From the IMG/VR virus record IMGVR_UViG_2698536401_000007: a DNA stretch of 6,665 bases. One strand, written 5' to 3'. This DNA is from a virus (taxonomy: Duplodnaviria > Heunggongvirae > Uroviricota > Caudoviricetes). Every line of letters starts with the position of its first letter. The stretch's first letter is position 1. Shown here in pieces: positions 87 through 6,665 of the stretch. The notes beneath the pieces are model-generated. The model was not told where the DNA came from, did no database searches, and worked only from the letters and a program-made list of their open reading frames with translations. A program made the translations under genes and the position numbers.

Positions 87-1460
87 ATGAAAATACGCAC
101 GTATGACCTTGCTAACGGGAAATACACTGCACAGGACGCCACCACAGCGCGAAAAGGTCTTGTCCAGCTCAGTAGCGTCACCAACAGCGATTCTGAAACG
201 CTTGCGGCAACGCCAAAGGCGGTAAAGGCCGCGTATGACCTTGCTAACGGGAAATACACTGCACAGGATGCCACCACGGCGCGAAAAGGGCTTGTCCAGC
301 TCAGTAGCGCCACTAACAGTGATTCTGAAACGCTGGCCGCAACACCAAAAGCGGTGAAGTCTGCCTATGACAATGCTGAAAAACGTCTTCAGAAAGATCA
401 GAACGGTGCGGATATTCCGGGAAAGGATACCTTCACGAAAAATATCGGTGCCTGTCGTGCTTATAGCGGCGCTTTGAGCACTGAAGCCGGAAACTGGACA
501 ACCGCTCAGTTTATTGAATGGCTGGATTCCCGTGGTGCATTTAATCATCCGTACTGGATGTGCAAAGGCTCCTGGTCATATGCAAATAACAAAATCATTA
601 CGGATACCGGATGTGGTGATATCCACCTGGCTGGTTGTGTCGTCGAGGTCATGGGAACTAAATCTGCAATCACTATCCGAGTGACCACGCCGACAACATC
701 AAGCGGTGGCGGTACAACCAGCGCACAATTCACTTACATTAATCATGGGGACGCCTACTCCCCCGGCTGGCGTCGTGACTGGAATCGTCAGGGCGACGCA
801 ATGACCGGAACGATTAATCAGGACGGCGGAAGCCAGAATACCTATATGTCTACGGCCTTATGTTCAGGCACCAGAGGCGGCAAAAAATATCTCAGAAAGT
901 TTCGTGGTGGAGAAGGAGACACTATCTGGCATGAAACAGTACAGGGTGGGGTAGTTCGCTGGGCGACTGGTAATACTGATGCTCAGGAAGAATTATCACT
1001 CAGCTCCGCTTATGGTCTCCGTTCAAGAGGTGAGATTACATCACTCAGTGCCAATGGTCTGCGCATTGCTTATGGCAATTATGGATTCTTTATCAGGAAT
1101 GATGGTGGTAGCACATATTTAATGCTGACGGCCTCTGGCGATAAATTTGGAACATGGAACGGTTTAAGACCGCTGACTATCAATAACGCCAATGGCGGAG
1201 TGTCAATGGGGCATGGCCTGAGTGTTACTGGACGTGTTACCCCATCAGATTACGGAAATTTTGATTCCCGCTATGTGAAAGATGTTCGCCTGGGTACGCG
1301 TGTTGTTCAGACCATGCAAAAAGGCGTGATGTATGAGAAATCAGGCCATGTAATTACAGGGCTTGGCATTGTCGGCGAAGTTGATGGCGATGATCCGGCA
1401 GTATTCAGACCTATACAAAAATACATTAATGGCACATGGTATAATGTCGCACAGGTGTAA
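87..1460 (+). CDS. H: Phage tail fibre protein, P2 gpH-like; 457 aa as called from ATG 87, true N-terminus uncertain
   Basis: Long ORF in the six-frame track. Two tandem 44-aa units YDLANGKYTAQDATTARKGLVQLSS(V/A)TNSDSETLAATPKAVK typical of phage tail fibre repeats. C-terminus ...GNFDSRYVKDVRLGTRVVQ...PIQKYINGTWYNVAQV matches my recollection of P2-type H proteins. A G-like chaperone follows 3 nt downstream. No strong SD before ATG 87, and the ATG overlaps a TGA (88..90) ending a frame that is open from the window start. Confidence 0.85.
   Translation: MKIRTYDLANGKYTAQDATTARKGLVQLSSVTNSDSETLAATPKAVKAAYDLANGKYTAQDATTARKGLVQLSSATNSDSETLAATPKAVKSAYDNAEKRLQKDQNGADIPGKDTFTKNIGACRAYSGALSTEAGNWTTAQFIEWLDSRGAFNHPYWMCKGSWSYANNKIITDTGCGDIHLAGCVVEVMGTKSAITIRVTTPTTSSGGGTTSAQFTYINHGDAYSPGWRRDWNRQGDAMTGTINQDGGSQNTYMSTALCSGTRGGKKYLRKFRGGEGDTIWHETVQGGVVRWATGNTDAQEELSLSSAYGLRSRGEITSLSANGLRIAYGNYGFFIRNDGGSTYLMLTASGDKFGTWNGLRPLTINNANGGVSMGHGLSVTGRVTPSDYGNFDSRYVKDVRLGTRVVQTMQKGVMYEKSGHVITGLGIVGEVDGDDPAVFRPIQKYINGTWYNVAQV
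102..365 (+). repeat. Tandem direct repeat, 2 x 132 bp (2 x 44 codons), inside the tail fibre gene; a third unit starts at 366 but diverges after YD
   Basis: Copy 1 (102..233) and copy 2 (234..365) both begin tatgaccttgctaacgggaaatacactgcacagga and are near-identical for the first ~70 bp, with more synonymous and a few non-synonymous changes later. Seen directly in the sequence. Confidence 0.9.
1453..1457 (+). promoter_or_regulatory. Shine-Dalgarno (AGGTG) for the G-like gene
   Basis: AGGTG lies 6 nt upstream of ATG 1464 and just before the H stop codon TAA (1458..1460). Confidence 0.6.
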
Positions 1461-1463
1461 TTT

Positions 1464-1991
1464 ATGCTGCATTTAAAAAATATTACTGCGGGTAATCCCA
1501 AAACTGTTGCCCAATATCAACTGACAAAAAATTTTGATGTTATCTGGTTATGGTCTGAAGACGGAAAAAACTGGTATGAGGAAGTAAGTAATTTTCAGGA
1601 AGACACGATAAAGATTGTTTACGACGAGAATAATATAATTGTCGGCATCACCAGAGATGCTTCAACGCTTAACCCTGAAGGTTTTAGCGTTGTCGAGGTT
1701 CCTGATATTACCGCCAACCGACGTGCGGATGACTCAGGTAAATGGATGTTTAAGGATGGTGCCGTGATTAAGCGGATTTATACGACAGACGAACAGCAGC
1801 AACTGGCAGAATCACAAAAGGCAACTTTACTTTCCGAAGCGGAATCCGTGATTTTGCCGCTGGAGCGCGCTGTCAGGCTGAATATGGCAACAGATGAGGA
1901 GCGCAGCCGACTGGAAGCATGGGAACGCTACAGCGTTCTGGTCAGTCGTGTGGATCCTGCAAATCCTGAATGGCCGGAAATGCCGCAATAA
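1464..1991 (+). CDS. G: Tail fibre assembly chaperone, P2 gpG-like, 175 aa
   Basis: ORF immediately downstream of the tail fibre gene, with an SD and the size expected for P2 G. The C-terminal segment ...[31 protein letters not shown] is characteristic of tail fibre assembly proteins as I recall them. Synteny H-G. Confidence 0.9.
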
Positions 1992-2269
1992 GTTGTATGA
2001 GCTTACATACCTATAGCACAGAGTAAAGCCTAATCTGACAGTCCGCTCTGTGCCAAAAAGGGACGTTGCTAGGAGCATTAACCTTTAGTCGAAATGTGGT
2101 GTGAAAAAGAAAAACAGAATAGTTGTGCCGGACTCAGAATCTTCTGGTCTCGCACATTTACCTTTCTTCAAGTCTATAGGGGAAAGATTTTCAATGACTA
2201 ATCAATCAGTTTATATAAAACTCGTGTTTAGATTTTGAGCATTATTTACGATAGGTTTCTCAGGATATT

Positions 2270-2287
2270 GGCCCCCAGTAAGGGGCC
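2270..2287. other. GC-rich hairpin (GGCCCC-cagtaa-GGGGCC) between convergent genes; possible transcription stop or RNA stabiliser, no U-tract
   Basis: Perfect 6-bp GC stem with a 6-nt loop, 20 bp beyond the stop of the minus-strand operon (2307). No T-run follows on either strand, so it is not a canonical intrinsic terminator. Confidence 0.25.
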
Positions 2288-2306
2288 GTCAACCGCTGAC
2301 TAGCAA

Positions 2307-2900
2307 TTAGTTAATGCGTGTCAGCTCGTAATGACCTACTGTTTTACGGCTTGTAAAGTAGTTCCCATTTAACACGTCTTTATCATTAAGATTTAGCTTG
2401 AGAATAGCTGTGCCCATGTAAGGATCTTGTGGACCAAAACCTGCCTTATGCTTGGGGGTTGTTAAAAAAACGTAGTAAAGTTCTGGTCGCCCCGTTTCGG
2501 TATCCTTTTTAGGCTTAGCCACCAATGTCTGAGAATCGGAGTCGTCAGCTTCGACATCCATTCCAATTTTAAGAAAATCCTGCTTTATAGTTGCTTGTGC
2601 GTGGGATGTGCCTTTTTTATCTTCCCATTCCCAATGAATAACCATATCCCAGGTTCCGTTCAAATCAGGGAAGAGTAGGTTATTTAGTTTAGGGAACCAT
2701 TGCCATAACTTTCGCCACCCAAAGAAAAAAATTGATATCACAATAGTATTAAGAATAAACAAACCTCCAGATGCAACTGATAGGACTGTCATGAAAGTTG
2801 TGTTTTCATCATATATGCCCAATAAAATCAGACCGCAGACAGTCGCATAGATAACGGAGATTCTTGAGATTATTTTCCATATTGGGAGAAGGTTTATCAT
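2307..2900 (-). CDS. Membrane protein, 197 aa: two N-terminal TM helices plus a beta-rich C-terminal domain; candidate membrane-disrupting effector
   Basis: ORF with a strong SD (GAGGAG; plus-strand ctcctc at 2906..2911) 5 nt upstream of the ATG. Its start overlaps the stop of the upstream gene as ATGA (2897..2900). Hydrophobic stretches at about residues 11-30 and 36-62, then a domain with alternating hydrophobic/polar patterning (TWDMVIHWEW, ELYYVFLTT, GTAILKLNL, GHYELTRI). Topology called by eye. Confidence 0.8.
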   Translation of the reverse strand: MINLLPIWKIISRISVIYATVCGLILLGIYDENTTFMTVLSVASGGLFILNTIVISIFFFGWRKLWQWFPKLNNLLFPDLNGTWDMVIHWEWEDKKGTSHAQATIKQDFLKIGMDVEADDSDSQTLVAKPKKDTETGRPELYYVFLTTPKHKAGFGPQDPYMGTAILKLNLNDKDVLNGNYFTSRKTVGHYELTRIN

Positions 2901-3334
2901 TGCAACTCCTCGTAATAAACTTCTTTACCAGCCTCAAATATAGAAAGACGACCTCTTTCGCCTACAATCCCTGTAAGTTTAATCTCGTCAATGCAAGAGC
3001 CATAAAGGGCAGCAACAAAACGTCCACCGACGAGTCTTGAACTGTCAAAACTGATGTTCTCTATGATTGGTGGTGAGAAATATTGTGCGGTATAAGTAAC
3101 ATTTCCTGCTTCATCTAAGATGTGAAAGCCATCATGGTATTCGCTATTTTTATTGGAAATTCTTGATAATAATTCTAATGTGGAATCATTCTGTATGGGG
3201 TCTATATTCCGAAGACTTGTGATGGGAAGGCTATCAGGGTTATTACATATAATAACGCCTATGCCAGAAAAATAAGCACGACTGGATTTTTTCCAAATAT
3301 CATATAGTAATTTATATAATTTCTCTTTTGTCAT
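2897..3334 (-). CDS. Small soluble protein, 145 aa, with DisA_N / diadenylate-cyclase (DAC)-like motif pattern; candidate nucleotide cyclase or nucleotide-binding partner
   Basis: ORF with an SD (AGGAAG; plus-strand cttcct at 3344..3349) 9 nt upstream of ATG 3334. Residues GIGVII (24-29), HDG (67-69), YFSPP (85-89), GGRFVAA (103-109) and TGIVGERGRLSIF (121-133) follow the order and spacing of the DAC consensus GALIV ... HDGA ... LPLS ... GTRHRAA ... VSEETG as I recall it. H and the second R of the canonical RHR are replaced (GRFV). Confidence 0.8.
   Translation of the reverse strand: MTKEKLYKLLYDIWKKSSRAYFSGIGVIICNNPDSLPITSLRNIDPIQNDSTLELLSRISNKNSEYHDGFHILDEAGNVTYTAQYFSPPIIENISFDSSRLVGGRFVAALYGSCIDEIKLTGIVGERGRLSIFEAGKEVYYEELQ
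2906..2911 (-). promoter_or_regulatory. Shine-Dalgarno (GAGGAG on the minus strand) for the 197-aa gene, inside the 3' end of the upstream gene
   Basis: The reverse complement of plus-strand ctcctc (2906..2911) is GAGGAG, 5 nt from the ATG at 2900. Consistent with translational coupling. Confidence 0.6.
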
Positions 3335-3865
3335 CGTTCATTTCTTCCTGATTTTAGTTATTAACTACAAAAAATCAAACAGTAATATCAATAAAGACGA
3401 TTATCCAATAATTTTCTTTGCAATGGAAGATTTGATAATCAAGTATAAAGATTTGTAGAAACAATGAAATGAGGTTTGACGGCAGGCCTCAGAGCTCGAT
3501 GCAGTTTTAGCTAACCTCAATAAAAGGAAGGTGTTCGTTTTTTGCTCAATACTACCCGTCAACTTTGTGCCGCAAGCAGAGGCTGCAAACCTCAGCATAT
3601 GTAAGTCAATGGGGGATGTTACTAATACATTCGACCGAAACACTAAAAATTTCATTACATTTTATTGAGATAGGCATTTGAAATGTTGCAAGAAATGTAT
3701 AAATAATGTATTTATTCAGAATAATCGGGGTTCTGTTCATGGACGAGCCCCAAAAAGCTGATTATACCTAGGCAAGCGTCTGGTTGCTGATAGCTATTAT
3801 GGCAAAAGAAAGGACTGTTTGTTGATATAAATGAATAAACATCCGATTTGGTTTAGGGAGTCTGG
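3335..3865. promoter_or_regulatory. Divergent intergenic control region (531 bp) expected to hold promoters for the minus-strand operon and the plus-strand 633-aa gene; contains imperfect inverted repeats
   Basis: Lies between divergently oriented start codons (3334 minus, 3866 plus). AT-rich ends with -35/-10-like hexamers, e.g. TTGCAA (3686..3691), 17 bp, TATTTA (3709..3714) on plus, and TTGATT-16-TAAAAT on minus within 3350..3385. None is validated. Central GC-richer segment has inverted repeat arms at 3471..3495 and 3572..3596. Confidence 0.4.
3855..3860 (+). promoter_or_regulatory. Shine-Dalgarno (AGGGAG) for the 633-aa gene
   Basis: AGGGAG lies 5 nt upstream of ATG 3866. Confidence 0.65.
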
Positions 3866-5767
3866 ATGAAGCTAAGAATAAGTAAAATATCATTAAAAAA
3901 CTTCAAAAGTTTTAAAAATATTACTATCGTTCCCAATCCTGATTTTAATATAATCATTGGGGAAAATAGTGCTGGGAAGTCAACTGTTTTTGAAGCTATT
4001 CATTTATGGGAGAAATGTTATAAAACATATATCCTTGCTTCAAGGAAAGGGTTTTATAAAGTTAAGAAGTCAACAAACAGATATGTTAATTATCAAGAGC
4101 TGGATTTTTTGCGAATCACAAGTGATGAGGATCTTTTTCACGACCCAAGAGATCCTAATCTAGGAAAATGCTCTGAAATAACTCTGACATTAAAAAATGA
4201 AGAGGAGAATGATAAGAGCTGGGAGCTTGGATTCAAAGTTACATGCCCAACATCAATCGAAAATGCTTTTTTCCGCGTTCAACCAATAGATGAAAATCAG
4301 TTTACTAATTTTGCGGAAGAATTTTGTAAAGGAGGGGCATTTTTGGATGAAGCTATCTTTATTTACCAGACGAGACCAGTAGCAGGAGTTCATCAATTTG
4401 AGCCGTACTATAATGAGGCTCAGATTAAGAGAAAAATACAAAAAGGTTATTCACACGAGGTTCTTAGAAACAAAATTATCTCTAAAAGAAAGTCAATATC
4501 AGATTTGGAATTAAGCATATCTGAAATACTTGAGAAAGATGTCAAGTTCAATATTCCTTCGGATGCAAGAAAAAATAAAGATGAATTCATTAAACTTGAT
4601 GTTTCAATCAATAGTTCAAAATATTATGATCTTCACCTTCAAGGAAGTGGTTTTCTTCAAATTGTGGAAATACTATCTACAGTTGAATTTATTGATGCTC
4701 CTCTCAAGTTACTGCTTGTTGACGAACCTGACTCACACATCCACACAAAGCTACAACATAATCTTCTCGCCCATTTAAAAAAAATAGATCACAATCAGTT
4801 TTTTATTATCAGTCATAACGATCAATTTGTGACCAGCGCAGGAGAAGGTGAAGTATTCTTCCTAAACGAAGACGCTAAATTAAGTGGTCACCTAGAAGCA
4901 ATCAACCCAAATAGTTTCGATATTATAAAAAACTCATTGGGGGGGGTAATTTTATCTCTCGAGAGACTTAATAATGCAAAACTAATCGCATTTGTTGAAG
5001 GTGAGGACGATGAAAAATATCTAAAGAAACTTAACCAAAAGATCAAAGAAATTACTAACCCAATTGGTTGTTTGAAAAATGTAGTTTTCTTTCCGTTACG
5101 AGGAAAAGATAATATTCTCCAAAAGGTTGAGTATAATAAGAGAACTTTAAATTCGATTCTAAATGGCAAATCGTGGTATGTTATTTTTGATCGGGATTTT
5201 TCTACAGACACTGTTGATCATTATCTTAAGGAAAATATTACTAAGAAACGGTTCACTCCATATAGTCATGTGGGGTATTGTATTGAGTCAGTGTTATTTT
5301 CGGATCTGAGTATTTTTAAAAAGTATTTGTATTCCTTGGCTCCATTTATTGCTGAAGACGAATTTTCAACACACATTGATACCTTAATTGATGAATTAAA
5401 GGATTCTGTCAATAATTTAACCTCCTCACTAAACAAAGAAATAGAGGCTAGATTCAATAGTCAAAAGAAAAACCGACCAGAATTTGCTAATCTTAATTTT
5501 GTGGATGTCGTTAGATCATGGTGCGAAGATGGAGTATTCAAACCTGAGCGAGTAATGTCAAAACCTCTTATCCAAAAGTTTGTTACAGATCTGGAAAATA
5601 AAATAGGTGTTTCTCTCTTCCTGCGAGAATCAAATGTAGATGAAGAAGTAGCATCAAAGTTATTATTTAAATACTTTGACTTCATTCAGACAATTGATGA
5701 TTTGTATCCATCATTTCGAGACTTGATGAAACAGCTAGATGTGCTGCCAAGAAATGAAGTTGAATAA
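3866..5767 (+). CDS. ABC/AAA15-type ATPase fused to a Toprim-like nuclease domain, 633 aa; OLD-family or fused PARIS (AriA-AriB)-like anti-phage candidate
   Basis: Walker A GENSAGKST (residues 32-40). Signature-like LQGSGF. Walker B with D- and H-loop LLLVDEPDSHIH (about 282-293). C-terminal FVEGEDDEKY (Glu about 378) and VIFDRDF (Asp about 442/444) match the Toprim E...DxD pattern of OLD/DUF4435 proteins. Good SD. Very AT-rich coding sequence. A roughly 160-aa C-terminal tail has no recognisable motif. Confidence 0.9.
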   Translation: MKLRISKISLKNFKSFKNITIVPNPDFNIIIGENSAGKSTVFEAIHLWEKCYKTYILASRKGFYKVKKSTNRYVNYQELDFLRITSDEDLFHDPRDPNLGKCSEITLTLKNEEENDKSWELGFKVTCPTSIENAFFRVQPIDENQFTNFAEEFCKGGAFLDEAIFIYQTRPVAGVHQFEPYYNEAQIKRKIQKGYSHEVLRNKIISKRKSISDLELSISEILEKDVKFNIPSDARKNKDEFIKLDVSINSSKYYDLHLQGSGFLQIVEILSTVEFIDAPLKLLLVDEPDSHIHTKLQHNLLAHLKKIDHNQFFIISHNDQFVTSAGEGEVFFLNEDAKLSGHLEAINPNSFDIIKNSLGGVILSLERLNNAKLIAFVEGEDDEKYLKKLNQKIKEITNPIGCLKNVVFFPLRGKDNILQKVEYNKRTLNSILNGKSWYVIFDRDFSTDTVDHYLKENITKKRFTPYSHVGYCIESVLFSDLSIFKKYLYSLAPFIAEDEFSTHIDTLIDELKDSVNNLTSSLNKEIEARFNSQKKNRPEFANLNFVDVVRSWCEDGVFKPERVMSKPLIQKFVTDLENKIGVSLFLRESNVDEEVASKLLFKYFDFIQTIDDLYPSFRDLMKQLDVLPRNEVE

Positions 5768-5960
5768 TATTATCGCGTTTCAAAATATAGAACGGTGGGT
5801 AAGGTAATGAATGACAAAATACACATTGAATCGCCACGAACCAAGCAATAAGCATATCAGCTCAGCCCTTATGGGCTGATGATCTGTTCCTCGCTCAAAG
5901 CAAGCTTTCAGATTTGATAACAAATTGTCAGTTGGAAACTGAGTGAGTACAAATCAAGGC

Positions 5961-5988
5961 AGGCGGGCTGATTGCCCGCCTTTTCTTT
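5961..5988 (+). terminator. Rho-independent terminator
   Basis: Stem AGGCGGGC (5961..5968), loop TGATT, stem GCCCGCCT (5974..5981), running into T-tract TTTTCTTT (5981..5988). About 190 bp downstream of the 633-aa gene stop, upstream of FI. Confidence 0.7.
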
Positions 5989-6073
5989 ATCTGTTGTTTC
6001 ATCCACTGACCAGTCAGGTCAAATAGCGTCTCATGCACTGCCCAACAGAAAATACCACTCACCCATTAACCAC

Positions 6074-6077
6074 GGAG
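6074..6077 (+). promoter_or_regulatory. Shine-Dalgarno (GGAG) for FI
   Basis: GGAG lies 8 nt upstream of ATG 6086. Confidence 0.6.
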
Positions 6078-6085
6078 TTAAACGG

Positions 6086-6665
6086 ATGAGTGACTATCAT
6101 CATGGCGTGCAGGTGCTGGAGATTAACGACGGCACCCGCGTCATTTCCACCGTATCCACCGCCATTGTCGGCATGGTCTGCACGGCCAGCGATGCGGATG
6201 CGGAAATCTTCCCCCTCAATAAACCGGTGCTGATTACCAATGTGCAGAGCGCAATTGCAAAGGCCGGTAAAAAAGGCACGCTGGCGGCGTCGCTGCAGGC
6301 CATCGCCGACCAGTCAAAACCGGTCACCGTTGTTGTGCGCGTGGAAGACGGCACCGGCGACGACGAGGAAACGAAACTTGCGCAGACCGTTTCCAATATC
6401 ATCGGCACCACCGACGAAAACGGTCAGTACACCGGACTGAAAGCCCTGCTGGCGGCGGAGTCAGTAACCGGTGTTAAACCGCGTATTCTCGGCGTGCCGG
6501 GACTGGACACCAAAGAGGTGGCTGTTGCATTGGCATCAGTCTGTCAGAAGCTGCGCGCTTTCGGATATATCAGCGCATGGGGCTGTAAGACCATTTCCGA
6601 GGTGAAAGCCTACCGCCAGAATTTCAGCCAGCGTGAACTGATGGTTATCTGGCCGGATTTCCTCG
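6086..6665 (+). CDS. FI: Phage tail sheath protein FI (P2 gpFI-like), 5' partial; first 193 codons, continues beyond the window
   Basis: Translation [83 protein letters not shown]... closely matches the N-terminus of P2 tail sheath FI as I recall it. The frame is open from ATG 6086 to the window end. GC-rich, unlike the cargo. Absent from the ORF track only because no stop is reached. Confidence 0.95.

What the first reader, a model, noticed from the sequence alone, without database searches (positions are those of the whole stretch)
2897..3334. DAC-like protein with the canonical RHR motif replaced (GGRFVAA instead of GTRHRAA)
If the alignment to the DAC fold is right, the catalytic DGA-region Asp (HDG, residues 67-69) is kept, but the RHR phosphate-contacting motif is R-F-V. 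That suggests altered substrate or product, a regulated enzyme, or a nucleotide-binding sensor rather than a synthase. The protein is also a bare ~145-aa domain with no TM anchor and no regulatory extension, unlike housekeeping CdaA/DisA.
Basis: inference. Interest (0 to 1): 0.7.

Follow-up and report, generated by a model that had tools for sequence, protein, structure and literature searches.

The report
Prophage decoy-signal defence: minimal DAC PanS
The flagged gene is a real, stripped-down diadenylate-cyclase-fold enzyme that, with the membrane-toxin gene overlapping its end, forms a two-gene "Panoptoo/PanDA" anti-phage guard system described in two August 2026 preprints, here carried as cargo in a P2-like prophage of E. 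coli.

Summary
Window 3334..2897 (minus strand) encodes a 145-aa protein with a confidently modelled DAC fold. HDG is kept at residues 67-69, and G-G-R-F-V-A-A (103-109) aligns to canonical G-T-R-H-R-A-A. The changed motif is a family hallmark (R invariant, His replaced by Tyr/Phe), not decay. The gene overlaps by 4 nt a 197-aa gene with two TM helices and a Cap15-type cyclic-dinucleotide-binding barrel. The protein matches PDB 37jy "Panoptoo PanS synthase" at E=1.6e-30 (about 40% identity). Two August 2026 preprints report that PanS constitutively makes 3'3'-c-di-AMP or 3'3'-cUA, that this signal represses the PanE membrane effector, and that phage nucleotide sponges release PanE. The pair is adjacent in 26 of 29 species genomes, fused in two proteins, and moves as a ~1.45-kb cassette, here inserted between the tail-fibre-assembly and sheath genes of a P2-like prophage. 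The "altered product" reading fits. "Sensor rather than synthase" and "regulated enzyme" do not. This is a new member of a known, very recently described kind. The product and trigger of this ortholog are untested.

The parts
2897..3334 (-). panS: 145-aa minimal DAC-fold nucleotide synthase. HDG is encoded at 3128-3136 and GGRFVAA at 3008-3028.
   Evidence: ORF. PDB 37jy 'Panoptoo PanS synthase' E=1.6e-30. AF2 pLDDT 93.7. All top 50 Foldseek hits are DACs. Motif mapping to CdaA. Column conservation.
2307..2900 (-). panE: 197-aa effector with two N-terminal TM helices (centres near residues 20 and 49) and a Cap15-type cyclic-dinucleotide receptor beta-barrel (residues ~71-197).
   Evidence: Pfam Cap15_CD_rec 8.4e-20, 71.7 bits against a 31.2 cut-off. 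PADLOC CBASS '2TM' effector 3.1e-31. Family profile hits PDB Cap15 7n34 at E=6.4e-14. Hydropathy.
2897..2900 (-). ATGA overlap: the panS stop codon TGA (2899-2897) overlaps the panE start ATG (2900-2898), which suggests translational coupling.
   Evidence: Read from the sequence. The same 4-nt overlap occurs in the E. coli, Serratia and distant metagenomic loci.
2906..2910 (-). AGGAG Shine-Dalgarno for panE, with a 5-nt spacer, lying inside the 3' end of panS.
   Evidence: Sequence. Assignment as a ribosome-binding site is inference.
3344..3349 (-). AGGAAG Shine-Dalgarno for panS, with a 9-nt spacer.
   Evidence: Sequence. Assignment as a ribosome-binding site is inference.
3335..3580 (-). Upstream leader that travels with the cassette and presumably holds its promoter. 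A weak sigma-70-like site, TTGATT-16-TAAAAT, lies at 3378..3351.
   Evidence: 88-92% DNA identity to the Serratia and Klebsiella oxytoca loci ends at about 3529-3580 although the flanks are unrelated. The promoter scan is not enriched over shuffles, 14 found against 14.9 expected, so the promoter itself is inferred.
2139..2306 (-). Downstream tail of the cassette, with a GC-rich hairpin GGCCCC-N6-GGGGCC at 2270-2287 and no T-run. It may act as a terminator or insulator.
   Evidence: The conserved block starts at 2139-2144. The hairpin was read from the sequence. It was not called by the terminator scan.

Best explanation
The 145-aa protein is PanS, the signal synthase of a two-gene Panoptoo/PanDA anti-phage guard system. 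The overlapping 197-aa gene is PanE, its membrane effector. The proposed mechanism is inferred by homology and was not tested on this ortholog. PanS is a minimal DAC domain with no sensor or regulatory part, so it continuously condenses two NTPs into a 3'3' cyclic dinucleotide, either 3'3'-c-di-AMP or 3'3'-cUMP-AMP. To my knowledge E. coli does not otherwise make either molecule. The dinucleotide binds the cytosolic beta-barrel of PanE and holds this two-TM protein inactive. When an infecting phage expresses a cyclic-nucleotide sponge or nuclease meant to blunt CBASS-type immunity, the decoy pool is depleted. Ligand-free PanE then permeabilises the inner membrane and aborts the infection. The divergent active site keeps HDG, the first Arg and the base-stacking Tyr, and changes Thr to Gly, His to Phe and the second Arg to Val. 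This is the family's normal catalytic configuration, linked in the literature to a broken active-site symmetry and product choice. It is not a sign of lost activity. Here the ~1.45-kb cassette is prophage cargo at the variable locus between the tail-fibre-assembly and sheath genes of a P2-like prophage, where it would protect the lysogen from superinfecting phages.
For: Shown here. (1) The fold is DAC and the motifs are mapped. (2) The protein is homologous to the crystallised PanS at E=1.6e-30 alone and 3.6e-46 with the family profile, 40-42% identity over 137 residues. It falls in the same proteobacterial two-gene clade. (3) The partner is a 2TM plus Cap15-type receptor. (4) The linkage is tight. 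The 4-nt overlap is kept in the E. coli prophage, the Serratia chromosome and a 33%-identical metagenomic genome, while the neighbours differ. 26 of 29 species-representative loci have an adjacent same-strand PanE-like ORF. Two proteins are natural Cap15_CD_rec + DAC fusions. The cassette 2139-3580 is shared at 88-92% DNA identity between unrelated flanks. (5) The catalytic residues are under strong constraint: H67, D68, G69, F70 and R105 are near-invariant, position 106 is Y/F in 104 of 149, and Y85 is Y/F in 148 of 149. (6) The setting is typical of defence cargo: an AT-rich island (31-41% GC against 50-57% in the flanks) between tail genes. 1,661 E. coli genomes share the flanks but carry other cargo there. 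One distant homolog pair sits beside two CD-NTases and a patatin gene. From the literature: the abstracts of Ragucci, Haley and Kranzusch 2026 (PMC13640738) and Nabhani et al. 2026 (PMC13640721) report constitutive synthesis, repression of PanE and triggering by the sponge Acb4. The Panoptes precedent is PMC12657218.
Against: Nothing was tested on this ortholog. It is only about 40% identical to the crystallised PanS, which is 87% identical to a Rhizobiaceae homolog. I could read only the abstracts of the two preprints, so I do not know which homologs were assayed or which residues set the product. Cap15-family effectors exist in both polarities: Cap15 is activated by ligand and OptE is inhibited by it. 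Sequence does not tell me which polarity this PanE has. Related Bacteroidota operons carry Cap2/Cap3-like genes, which suggests that some DAC + Cap15-like systems may signal in the positive, CBASS-like direction. The position aligned near CdaA E223/E224 is not conserved. No convincing promoter was found.
Confidence: 0.8

Rival explanations
1. CBASS-like positive signalling. The minimal DAC is silent until phage infection activates it. Its cyclic dinucleotide then activates the Cap15-like effector, as in the CdnE-Cap15 type of CBASS.
For: The partner is a bona fide Cap15-family receptor, and Cap15 itself is activated by ligand. In Flavobacterium and Kaistella, a DAC-like gene is the last gene of a Cap2-like / Cap3-like / Cap15-like operon, a layout typical of regulated type II CBASS.
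Against: PanS has no sensor or regulatory extension and no accessory genes travel with this cassette. Both preprints report constitutive synthesis and negative regulation for two-gene PanS-PanE systems. The window protein clusters with that two-gene clade and not with the Cap2/Cap3-linked clade.
Confidence: 0.1
2. A catalytically dead DAC fold that acts as a nucleotide-binding sensor or regulator of the membrane protein. This was one of the first reader's alternatives.
For: RHR, which is essential in canonical DACs (AAA mutants abolish c-di-AMP synthesis; PMC4568413), is reduced to a single Arg. The phosphate-contacting Thr is Gly, and the region of CdaA E223/E224 is not conserved.
Against: The ribose-contacting HDG, the first Arg and the base-stacking Tyr are near-invariant over 149 cluster representatives. 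The 40%-identical homolog with the equivalent R-Y-L motif is deposited as a synthase, and the preprint abstract reports a PanS crystal structure with bound product and measured activity.
Confidence: 0.03
3. An ordinary housekeeping diadenylate cyclase for osmotic or cell-wall homeostasis, as the database name 'diadenylate cyclase / DisA nucleotide-binding domain protein' would suggest.
For: Public annotation and the DAC fold.
Against: It lacks the CdaA TM anchor, the DisA DNA-binding domains and the CdaS N-terminal helices. It sits in a horizontally mobile, AT-rich prophage island, operonic with a membrane toxin. It is absent from all 5,426 complete E. coli genomes searched. The family profile does not retrieve canonical DACs: only 330 clusters reach E<=1e-3, and CdaA scores E=0.57 in the PDB search.
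Confidence: 0.02

Closest known systems
Panoptoo (Ragucci, Haley & Kranzusch, bioRxiv Aug 2026; PDB 37jy PanS) = PanDA (Nabhani ... Whiteley & Morehouse, bioRxiv Aug 2026)
   Same: Both have a minimal ~145-aa DAC-fold synthase followed by an S-2TM-beta/Cap15-like effector in a two-gene operon. They share the invariant blocks FSGxG, YHDGFH, QYFSPP and GGR[Y/F]xAAxxGS. Sequence homology to the window protein is E=1.6e-30.
   Different: The window protein is only about 40% identical to the crystallised protein and belongs to a separate enterobacterial sub-clade with R-F-V instead of R-Y-L. Its product (cUA or c-di-AMP) and trigger are unknown. It is carried at a P2-like prophage variable locus. 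The word 'prophage' occurs 0 and 1 times in the two preprints' texts.
Panoptes (OptS mCpol + OptE 2TM-beta; PMC12657218, PMC12657230)
   Same: Same logic and same effector family: a constitutive decoy cyclic nucleotide represses a 2TM-beta effector, and phage sponges such as Acb2 release it.
   Different: The synthase fold is unrelated. OptS is a Cas10-type Palm (mCpol) domain that makes 2',3'-c-di-AMP, whereas this protein has a DAC fold and gave no mCpol hit in Pfam.
CBASS with a Cap15 effector (CD-NTase + Cap15; PDB 7n34/7n35)
   Same: The effector is homologous: two TM helices plus a cyclic-dinucleotide-binding beta-barrel, with E=6.4e-14 to the Cap15 structure and a PADLOC CBASS 2TM effector model at 3e-31.
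   Different: There is no CD-NTase/SMODS enzyme in the island. The expected polarity is reversed, with ligand inhibiting rather than activating.
Canonical diadenylate cyclases CdaA/DacA, DisA, CdaS (Pfam PF02457)
   Same: Same alpha/beta fold (TM 0.58-0.70). The HDG ribose-contacting motif, the first Arg of RHR and the CdaA-type base-stacking Tyr are conserved.
   Different: T-R-H-R has become G-R-F-V. There is no TM anchor, HhH domain or autoinhibitory helices. The Pfam score is sub-threshold (23.8 against 27 bits). The role is immune decoy signalling rather than osmotic, cell-wall or DNA-integrity signalling.

Membership tests
DAC domain superfamily (PF02457) | Mixed alpha/beta DAC fold | tested here: met
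   AF2 pLDDT 93.7. The 50 best PDB Foldseek hits are all DACs, with E down to 2.6e-7 and TM 0.58-0.70.
DAC domain superfamily (PF02457) | Pfam profile score above the gathering threshold | tested here: not met
   23.8 bits against a 27-bit cut-off, E=3.6e-5. 20 of 31 family members hit DAC at E<=0.01. This is a divergent clade, and membership rests on fold.
DAC domain superfamily (PF02457) | (H)DGA motif contacting the ribose | tested here: met
   H67-D68-G69 aligns to CdaA H170-D171-G172 and is near-invariant. Ala is replaced by Phe. The motif's role is taken from PMC6368335.
DAC domain superfamily (PF02457) | RHR motif | tested here: not met
   R105-F106-V107 aligns to R203-H204-R205. Across the family, R is invariant, His is replaced by Y (82), F (22) or kept as H (14), and the third position varies.
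Panoptoo/PanDA PanS | Sequence homology to experimentally defined PanS | tested here: met
   PDB 37jy_A 'Panoptoo PanS synthase': E=1.6e-30 over residues 6-142, profile E=3.6e-46, 40-42% identity.
Panoptoo/PanDA PanS | Minimal stand-alone DAC domain with no TM or regulatory domain | tested here: met
   145 aa, a single domain in the model, and no hydrophobic segment.
Panoptoo/PanDA PanS | Operonic S-2TM-beta effector (PanE) | tested here: met
   The overlapping 197-aa gene has two TM helices and Cap15_CD_rec. It is adjacent in 26 of 29 loci.
Panoptoo/PanDA PanS | Constitutive synthesis of 3'3'-c-di-AMP or 3'3'-cUA | not testable with these tools
   Known only from the preprint abstracts for homologs.
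Panoptoo/PanDA PanS | The signal represses PanE, and phage sponges (Acb4 and similar) trigger defence | not testable with these tools
   Preprint abstracts. Needs genetics and phage assays.
CBASS | CD-NTase (SMODS) signal synthase | tested here: not met
   No CD-NTase hit for any island protein in Pfam or PADLOC.
Panoptes (mCpol type) | mCpol / Cas10 Palm synthase | tested here: not met
   Pfam gave only DAC, and the fold search returns only DACs.
Housekeeping CdaA / DisA / CdaS | N-terminal TM anchor (CdaA), HhH DNA-binding domain (DisA) or autoinhibitory N-terminal helices (CdaS) | tested here: not met
   145 aa with one short N-terminal helix (residues 3-16) and no TM segment.

The most novel reading that the evidence does not exclude
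The enterobacterial R-F-V sub-clade of PanS, which is prophage- and island-borne and about 40% identical to the characterised enzyme, might make a signal other than the two reported (3'3'-c-di-AMP, 3'3'-cUA) or respond to a different set of phage counter-defence proteins. Together with the adjacent ABC-ATPase/DUF4435 gene (PARIS-like domain content), the P2 tail-locus island might be a dedicated 'counter-counter-defence' module, with which a prophage excludes superinfecting phages that carry anti-immune genes.
Probability: 0.15. Interest if true: 0.55.

Novelty: new member of a known kind. Interest (0 to 1): 0.3.

Why it matters
It shows that a raw-sequence reader can pick out a real active-site oddity that turns out to be the hallmark of a defence family described only weeks before the database snapshot. 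For biology, it places a Panoptoo/PanDA guard system inside a P2-like prophage of E. coli, a host that to my knowledge has no native c-di-AMP signalling. That makes it a convenient native model for three questions: how prophages police superinfecting phages that carry nucleotide sponges, which product the R-F-V active site makes, and how one Cap15-type effector family can be wired to respond to either the presence or the absence of ligand. Public annotation as a plain 'diadenylate cyclase' is misleading and could be corrected.

Tried and rejected
- Direct BLASTP of the protein against L. monocytogenes CdaA gave no alignment.
- The family profile against PDB sequences reached CdaA only at E=0.57, behind spurious KAT8 hits at E~0.02. 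The link to canonical DACs therefore rests on Pfam, hhalign and fold.
- The hhalign probability was only 11% (E=0.0028). I use it for residue registration, not as proof of homology.
- NCBIfam, PHROGs and PADLOC have no model for PanS.
- The full texts of both preprints could not be opened by DOI, PubMed id or PMC id. Only the abstracts were readable. I used term counts from full-text search as a weak proxy.
- No paper names the accessions of these E. coli proteins.
- The cassette gave no hit in 5,426 complete E. coli genomes or in 50,697 phage records.
- The promoter scan was not enriched over shuffles and the terminator scan found nothing after panE.
- Rfam gave no hit, so no cyclic-dinucleotide riboswitch is present.
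- The repeats in the island are short two-copy matches, consistent with chance.
- PanE alone gave only noise against PDB sequences. A family profile was needed to reach Cap15.

Full report
**1. What is in the window.**

The window is the tail region of a P2-like prophage. It holds:
- a tail-fibre gene at 87-1460 (Phage_fiber_2, Gp34_trimer);
- a tail-fibre-assembly gene at 1464-1991 (Caudo_TAP);
- the 5' part of a tail-sheath gene from 6086.

Between them lies an island of about 4 kb with 31-41% GC. The flanks have 50-57% GC. The island holds two divergent units:
- a minus-strand pair, 3334..2897 (145 aa) and 2900..2307 (197 aa);
- a plus-strand 633-aa gene at 3866-5767.

A contig from an E. 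coli assembly (L001) is 99.8% identical over 1263-6665. It shows the full P2-type tail module around the island: baseplate J/W/V, tail fibre, sheath, tube, gpE and tape measure. In 1,661 of 5,426 complete E. coli genomes only the flanks match, and the same position carries other cargo such as an HNH endonuclease or a DUF2971 protein. So this is a variable cargo locus. P2-like phages are known to have variable loci that hold anti-phage genes (PMC9122126).

**2. Check of the observation.**

HDG is residues 67-69 (DNA 3128-3136) and GGRFVAA is residues 103-109 (DNA 3008-3028).
- Pfam DAC matches just below threshold, at 23.8 against 27 bits and E=3.6e-5.
- BLASTP to CdaA finds nothing, so fold evidence was needed.
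- An AlphaFold2 model built on 31 homologs has pLDDT 93.7.
- Its 50 best PDB matches are all diadenylate cyclases.

I verified a reference CdaA sequence against PDB 6hvl/4rv7 at 100% identity. The profile alignment then pairs H67-D68-G69-F70 with H170-D171-G172-A173. It pairs G-G-R-F-V-A-A with G201-T202-R203-H204-R205-A206-A207, and Y85 with the adenine-stacking Y187.

In canonical DACs the motifs have these roles:
- the HDG Asp and Gly contact the ribose;
- the Thr before RHR contacts phosphate;
- the Tyr stacks on the base (PMC6368335);
- DGA and RHR are required for c-di-AMP synthesis (PMC4568413 and PMC8573169).

PanS therefore keeps the ribose and base contacts and the first Arg. It changes Thr to Gly, His to Phe and the second Arg to Val.

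**3. The motif change is a family trait.**

Across 149 cluster representatives the counts are as follows:

| Position | Residues observed |
|---|---|
| H67 | 146 of 149 |
| D68 | 148 of 149 |
| G69 | 148 of 149 |
| F70 | 144 of 149 |
| R105 | 143 of 143 non-gap |
| 106 | Y 82, F 22, H 14 |
| 107 | M, R, L, V or A |
| S113 | 133 of 149 |

Further blocks, FSGxG and QYFSPP, are also conserved. The family is small and well bounded, with 330 clusters at E<=1e-3 among 1.84 billion representatives. It does not pull in canonical DACs.

**4. What it is.**

The protein matches one solved structure by sequence: 37jy_A, "Panoptoo PanS synthase", at E=1.6e-30 and E=3.6e-46 with the family profile. Two preprints dated 11 August 2026 describe the system.
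- Ragucci, Haley and Kranzusch name it Panoptoo. [quoted passage not shown] A 1.5 Å structure with 3'3'-cUA explains a symmetry break in the DAC active site.
- Nabhani et al. name it PanDA. PanS makes 3'3'-c-di-AMP, which represses PanE, and the phage sponge Acb4 releases it.

I could read only the abstracts.

The partner gene in the window fits PanE:
- two hydrophobic segments in the first ~60 residues;
- Pfam Cap15_CD_rec at 71.7 bits;
- a PADLOC CBASS 2TM effector model at 3e-31;
- a family profile that hits the Cap15 crystal structure 7n34 at 6.4e-14.

**5. Linkage evidence generated here.**

- The panS stop and panE start overlap (ATGA), with an AGGAG 5 nt upstream of the panE start.
- The same 4-nt overlap is found in the Serratia chromosome, next to a SIR2_2 gene, and in a 33%-identical metagenomic genome, next to two CD-NTases, a patatin gene and an AAA_21 gene.
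- Of 29 species-representative loci, 26 have an adjacent same-strand PanE-like ORF. The loci span Gamma-, Beta- and Alphaproteobacteria, Bacteroidota and Acidobacteria. PanE is downstream in 22 loci and upstream only in 4.
- Two representatives are single-chain Cap15_CD_rec + DAC fusions.
- At the DNA level, window 2139-3580 is 88-92% identical to Serratia and Klebsiella oxytoca loci whose flanks are unrelated. The mobile unit is therefore panS, panE, about 245 bp upstream and about 165 bp downstream. The 633-aa gene is not part of it.

**6. Mechanism and its status.**

Shown here:
- the fold and the conserved catalytic core;
- the effector architecture;
- operon coupling;
- cassette mobility;
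- the location in a prophage cargo locus.

Inferred from homologs:
- constitutive synthesis;
- the identity of the product;
- inhibitory binding to PanE;
- triggering by sponges;
- membrane permeabilisation.

The window protein is 40-42% identical to the crystallised PanS, which is itself 87% identical to a Ciceribacter homolog. In a neighbour-joining tree the window protein lies in the same proteobacterial two-gene clade. Its sub-clade carries R-F-V and the crystallised one carries R-Y-L. I cannot say which product this enzyme makes.

**7. Rivals.**

- A CBASS-like positive circuit is the main alternative. Cap15 effectors can work in either polarity, and some Bacteroidota relatives have Cap2/Cap3-like genes. 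The absence of any regulatory part or accessory gene in this cassette, together with the preprints' results, argues against it.
- A dead-enzyme sensor and a housekeeping cyclase are both unlikely, for the reasons listed under the rival explanations.

**8. Novelty and score.**

The kind of system is known, through two preprints and a PDB entry. Public databases already label the two proteins at domain level, as "diadenylate cyclase" and [quoted passage not shown]. What is new is modest. This is an uncharacterised enterobacterial sub-clade, it is carried at a P2-like prophage tail locus, and I have defined the cassette boundaries. The cassette is rare in E. coli. It is absent from the complete-genome set and from phage records, although the exact protein occurs on 82 contigs. 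I rate it a new member of a known kind, with interest 0.3.

Noticed in passing
window 3866-5767 (+): A 633-aa single-chain ABC/SMC-type ATPase (AAA_15/21/23, residues ~1-350) fused to DUF4435, a Toprim-like domain (residues 372-534). It is divergently oriented from panSE and is not part of the mobile cassette. PADLOC gives partial hits to NsnB (3.4e-20), AriAB, the fused PARIS model (4.5e-19), PtuA and GajA. It matches PHROG 9802 (1.5e-133, unknown function). Only weak PDB hits to PtuA and AriA, and no hit in phage records. It is probably a second, separate defence gene with PARIS-like domain content.
   Followed up: partly
L036 1150-4447 (Flavobacterium sp. ST-75); L040 983-4381 (Kaistella MAG): A four-gene same-strand operon: Prok-E2_B + ThiF (Cap2-like, 576-584 aa), Prok-JAB (Cap3-like), a 2TM + Cap15_CD_rec effector, and a PanS-like minimal DAC. 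This is a type II CBASS layout with a DAC in place of the CD-NTase. The words 'Cap2' and 'Cap3' occur 0 times in both preprints' texts.
   Followed up: partly
L037 3935-4426, L038, L039 3911-4456; proteins P0153, P0202, P0124, P0172, P0139: A divergent sub-clade of the same DAC-like family has no PanE neighbour. It sits between a class IV aminotransferase and an FMN-dependent dehydrogenase. Related proteins are fused to TPP_enzyme_C, SAM-methyltransferase or metallophosphoesterase domains. This suggests a role unrelated to Panoptoo, although some fusions may be gene-calling artefacts.
   Followed up: no
proteins P0182 (393 aa) and P0205 (382 aa): Natural single-chain fusions of an N-terminal Cap15_CD_rec effector with a C-terminal DAC-like domain. 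Their motifs are altered to HDGF[F/C] and GTRSY.
   Followed up: no
L009-L011, 825-7148: In a distant metagenomic genome the PanS/PanE-like pair lies directly beside two CD-NTase genes, a patatin (CapV-like) gene and an AAA_21 ATPase. This fits the idea that these guard systems accompany CBASS.
   Followed up: no
L022, L023, L024 (Sphingomonas) and L033: These loci have two PanE-like ORFs, one upstream and one downstream of the PanS-like gene.
   Followed up: no
window 87-1262: The tail-fibre gene starts with two tandem copies of a ~44-aa Phage_fiber_2 repeat (YDLANGKYTAQDATTARKGLVQLSS...AATPKAVK). Against the otherwise 99.8%-identical E. coli contig L001, the window is only 88% identical over 102-780 and unalignable over 781-1262. 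This indicates a swapped, mosaic tail-fibre segment, possibly affecting host range.
   Followed up: partly
window 5961-5981: A strong bidirectional terminator-like hairpin (AGGCGGGC-N5-GCCCGCCT with T-runs on both strands) lies between the 633-aa gene and the sheath gene, at the right-hand edge of the island.
   Followed up: no
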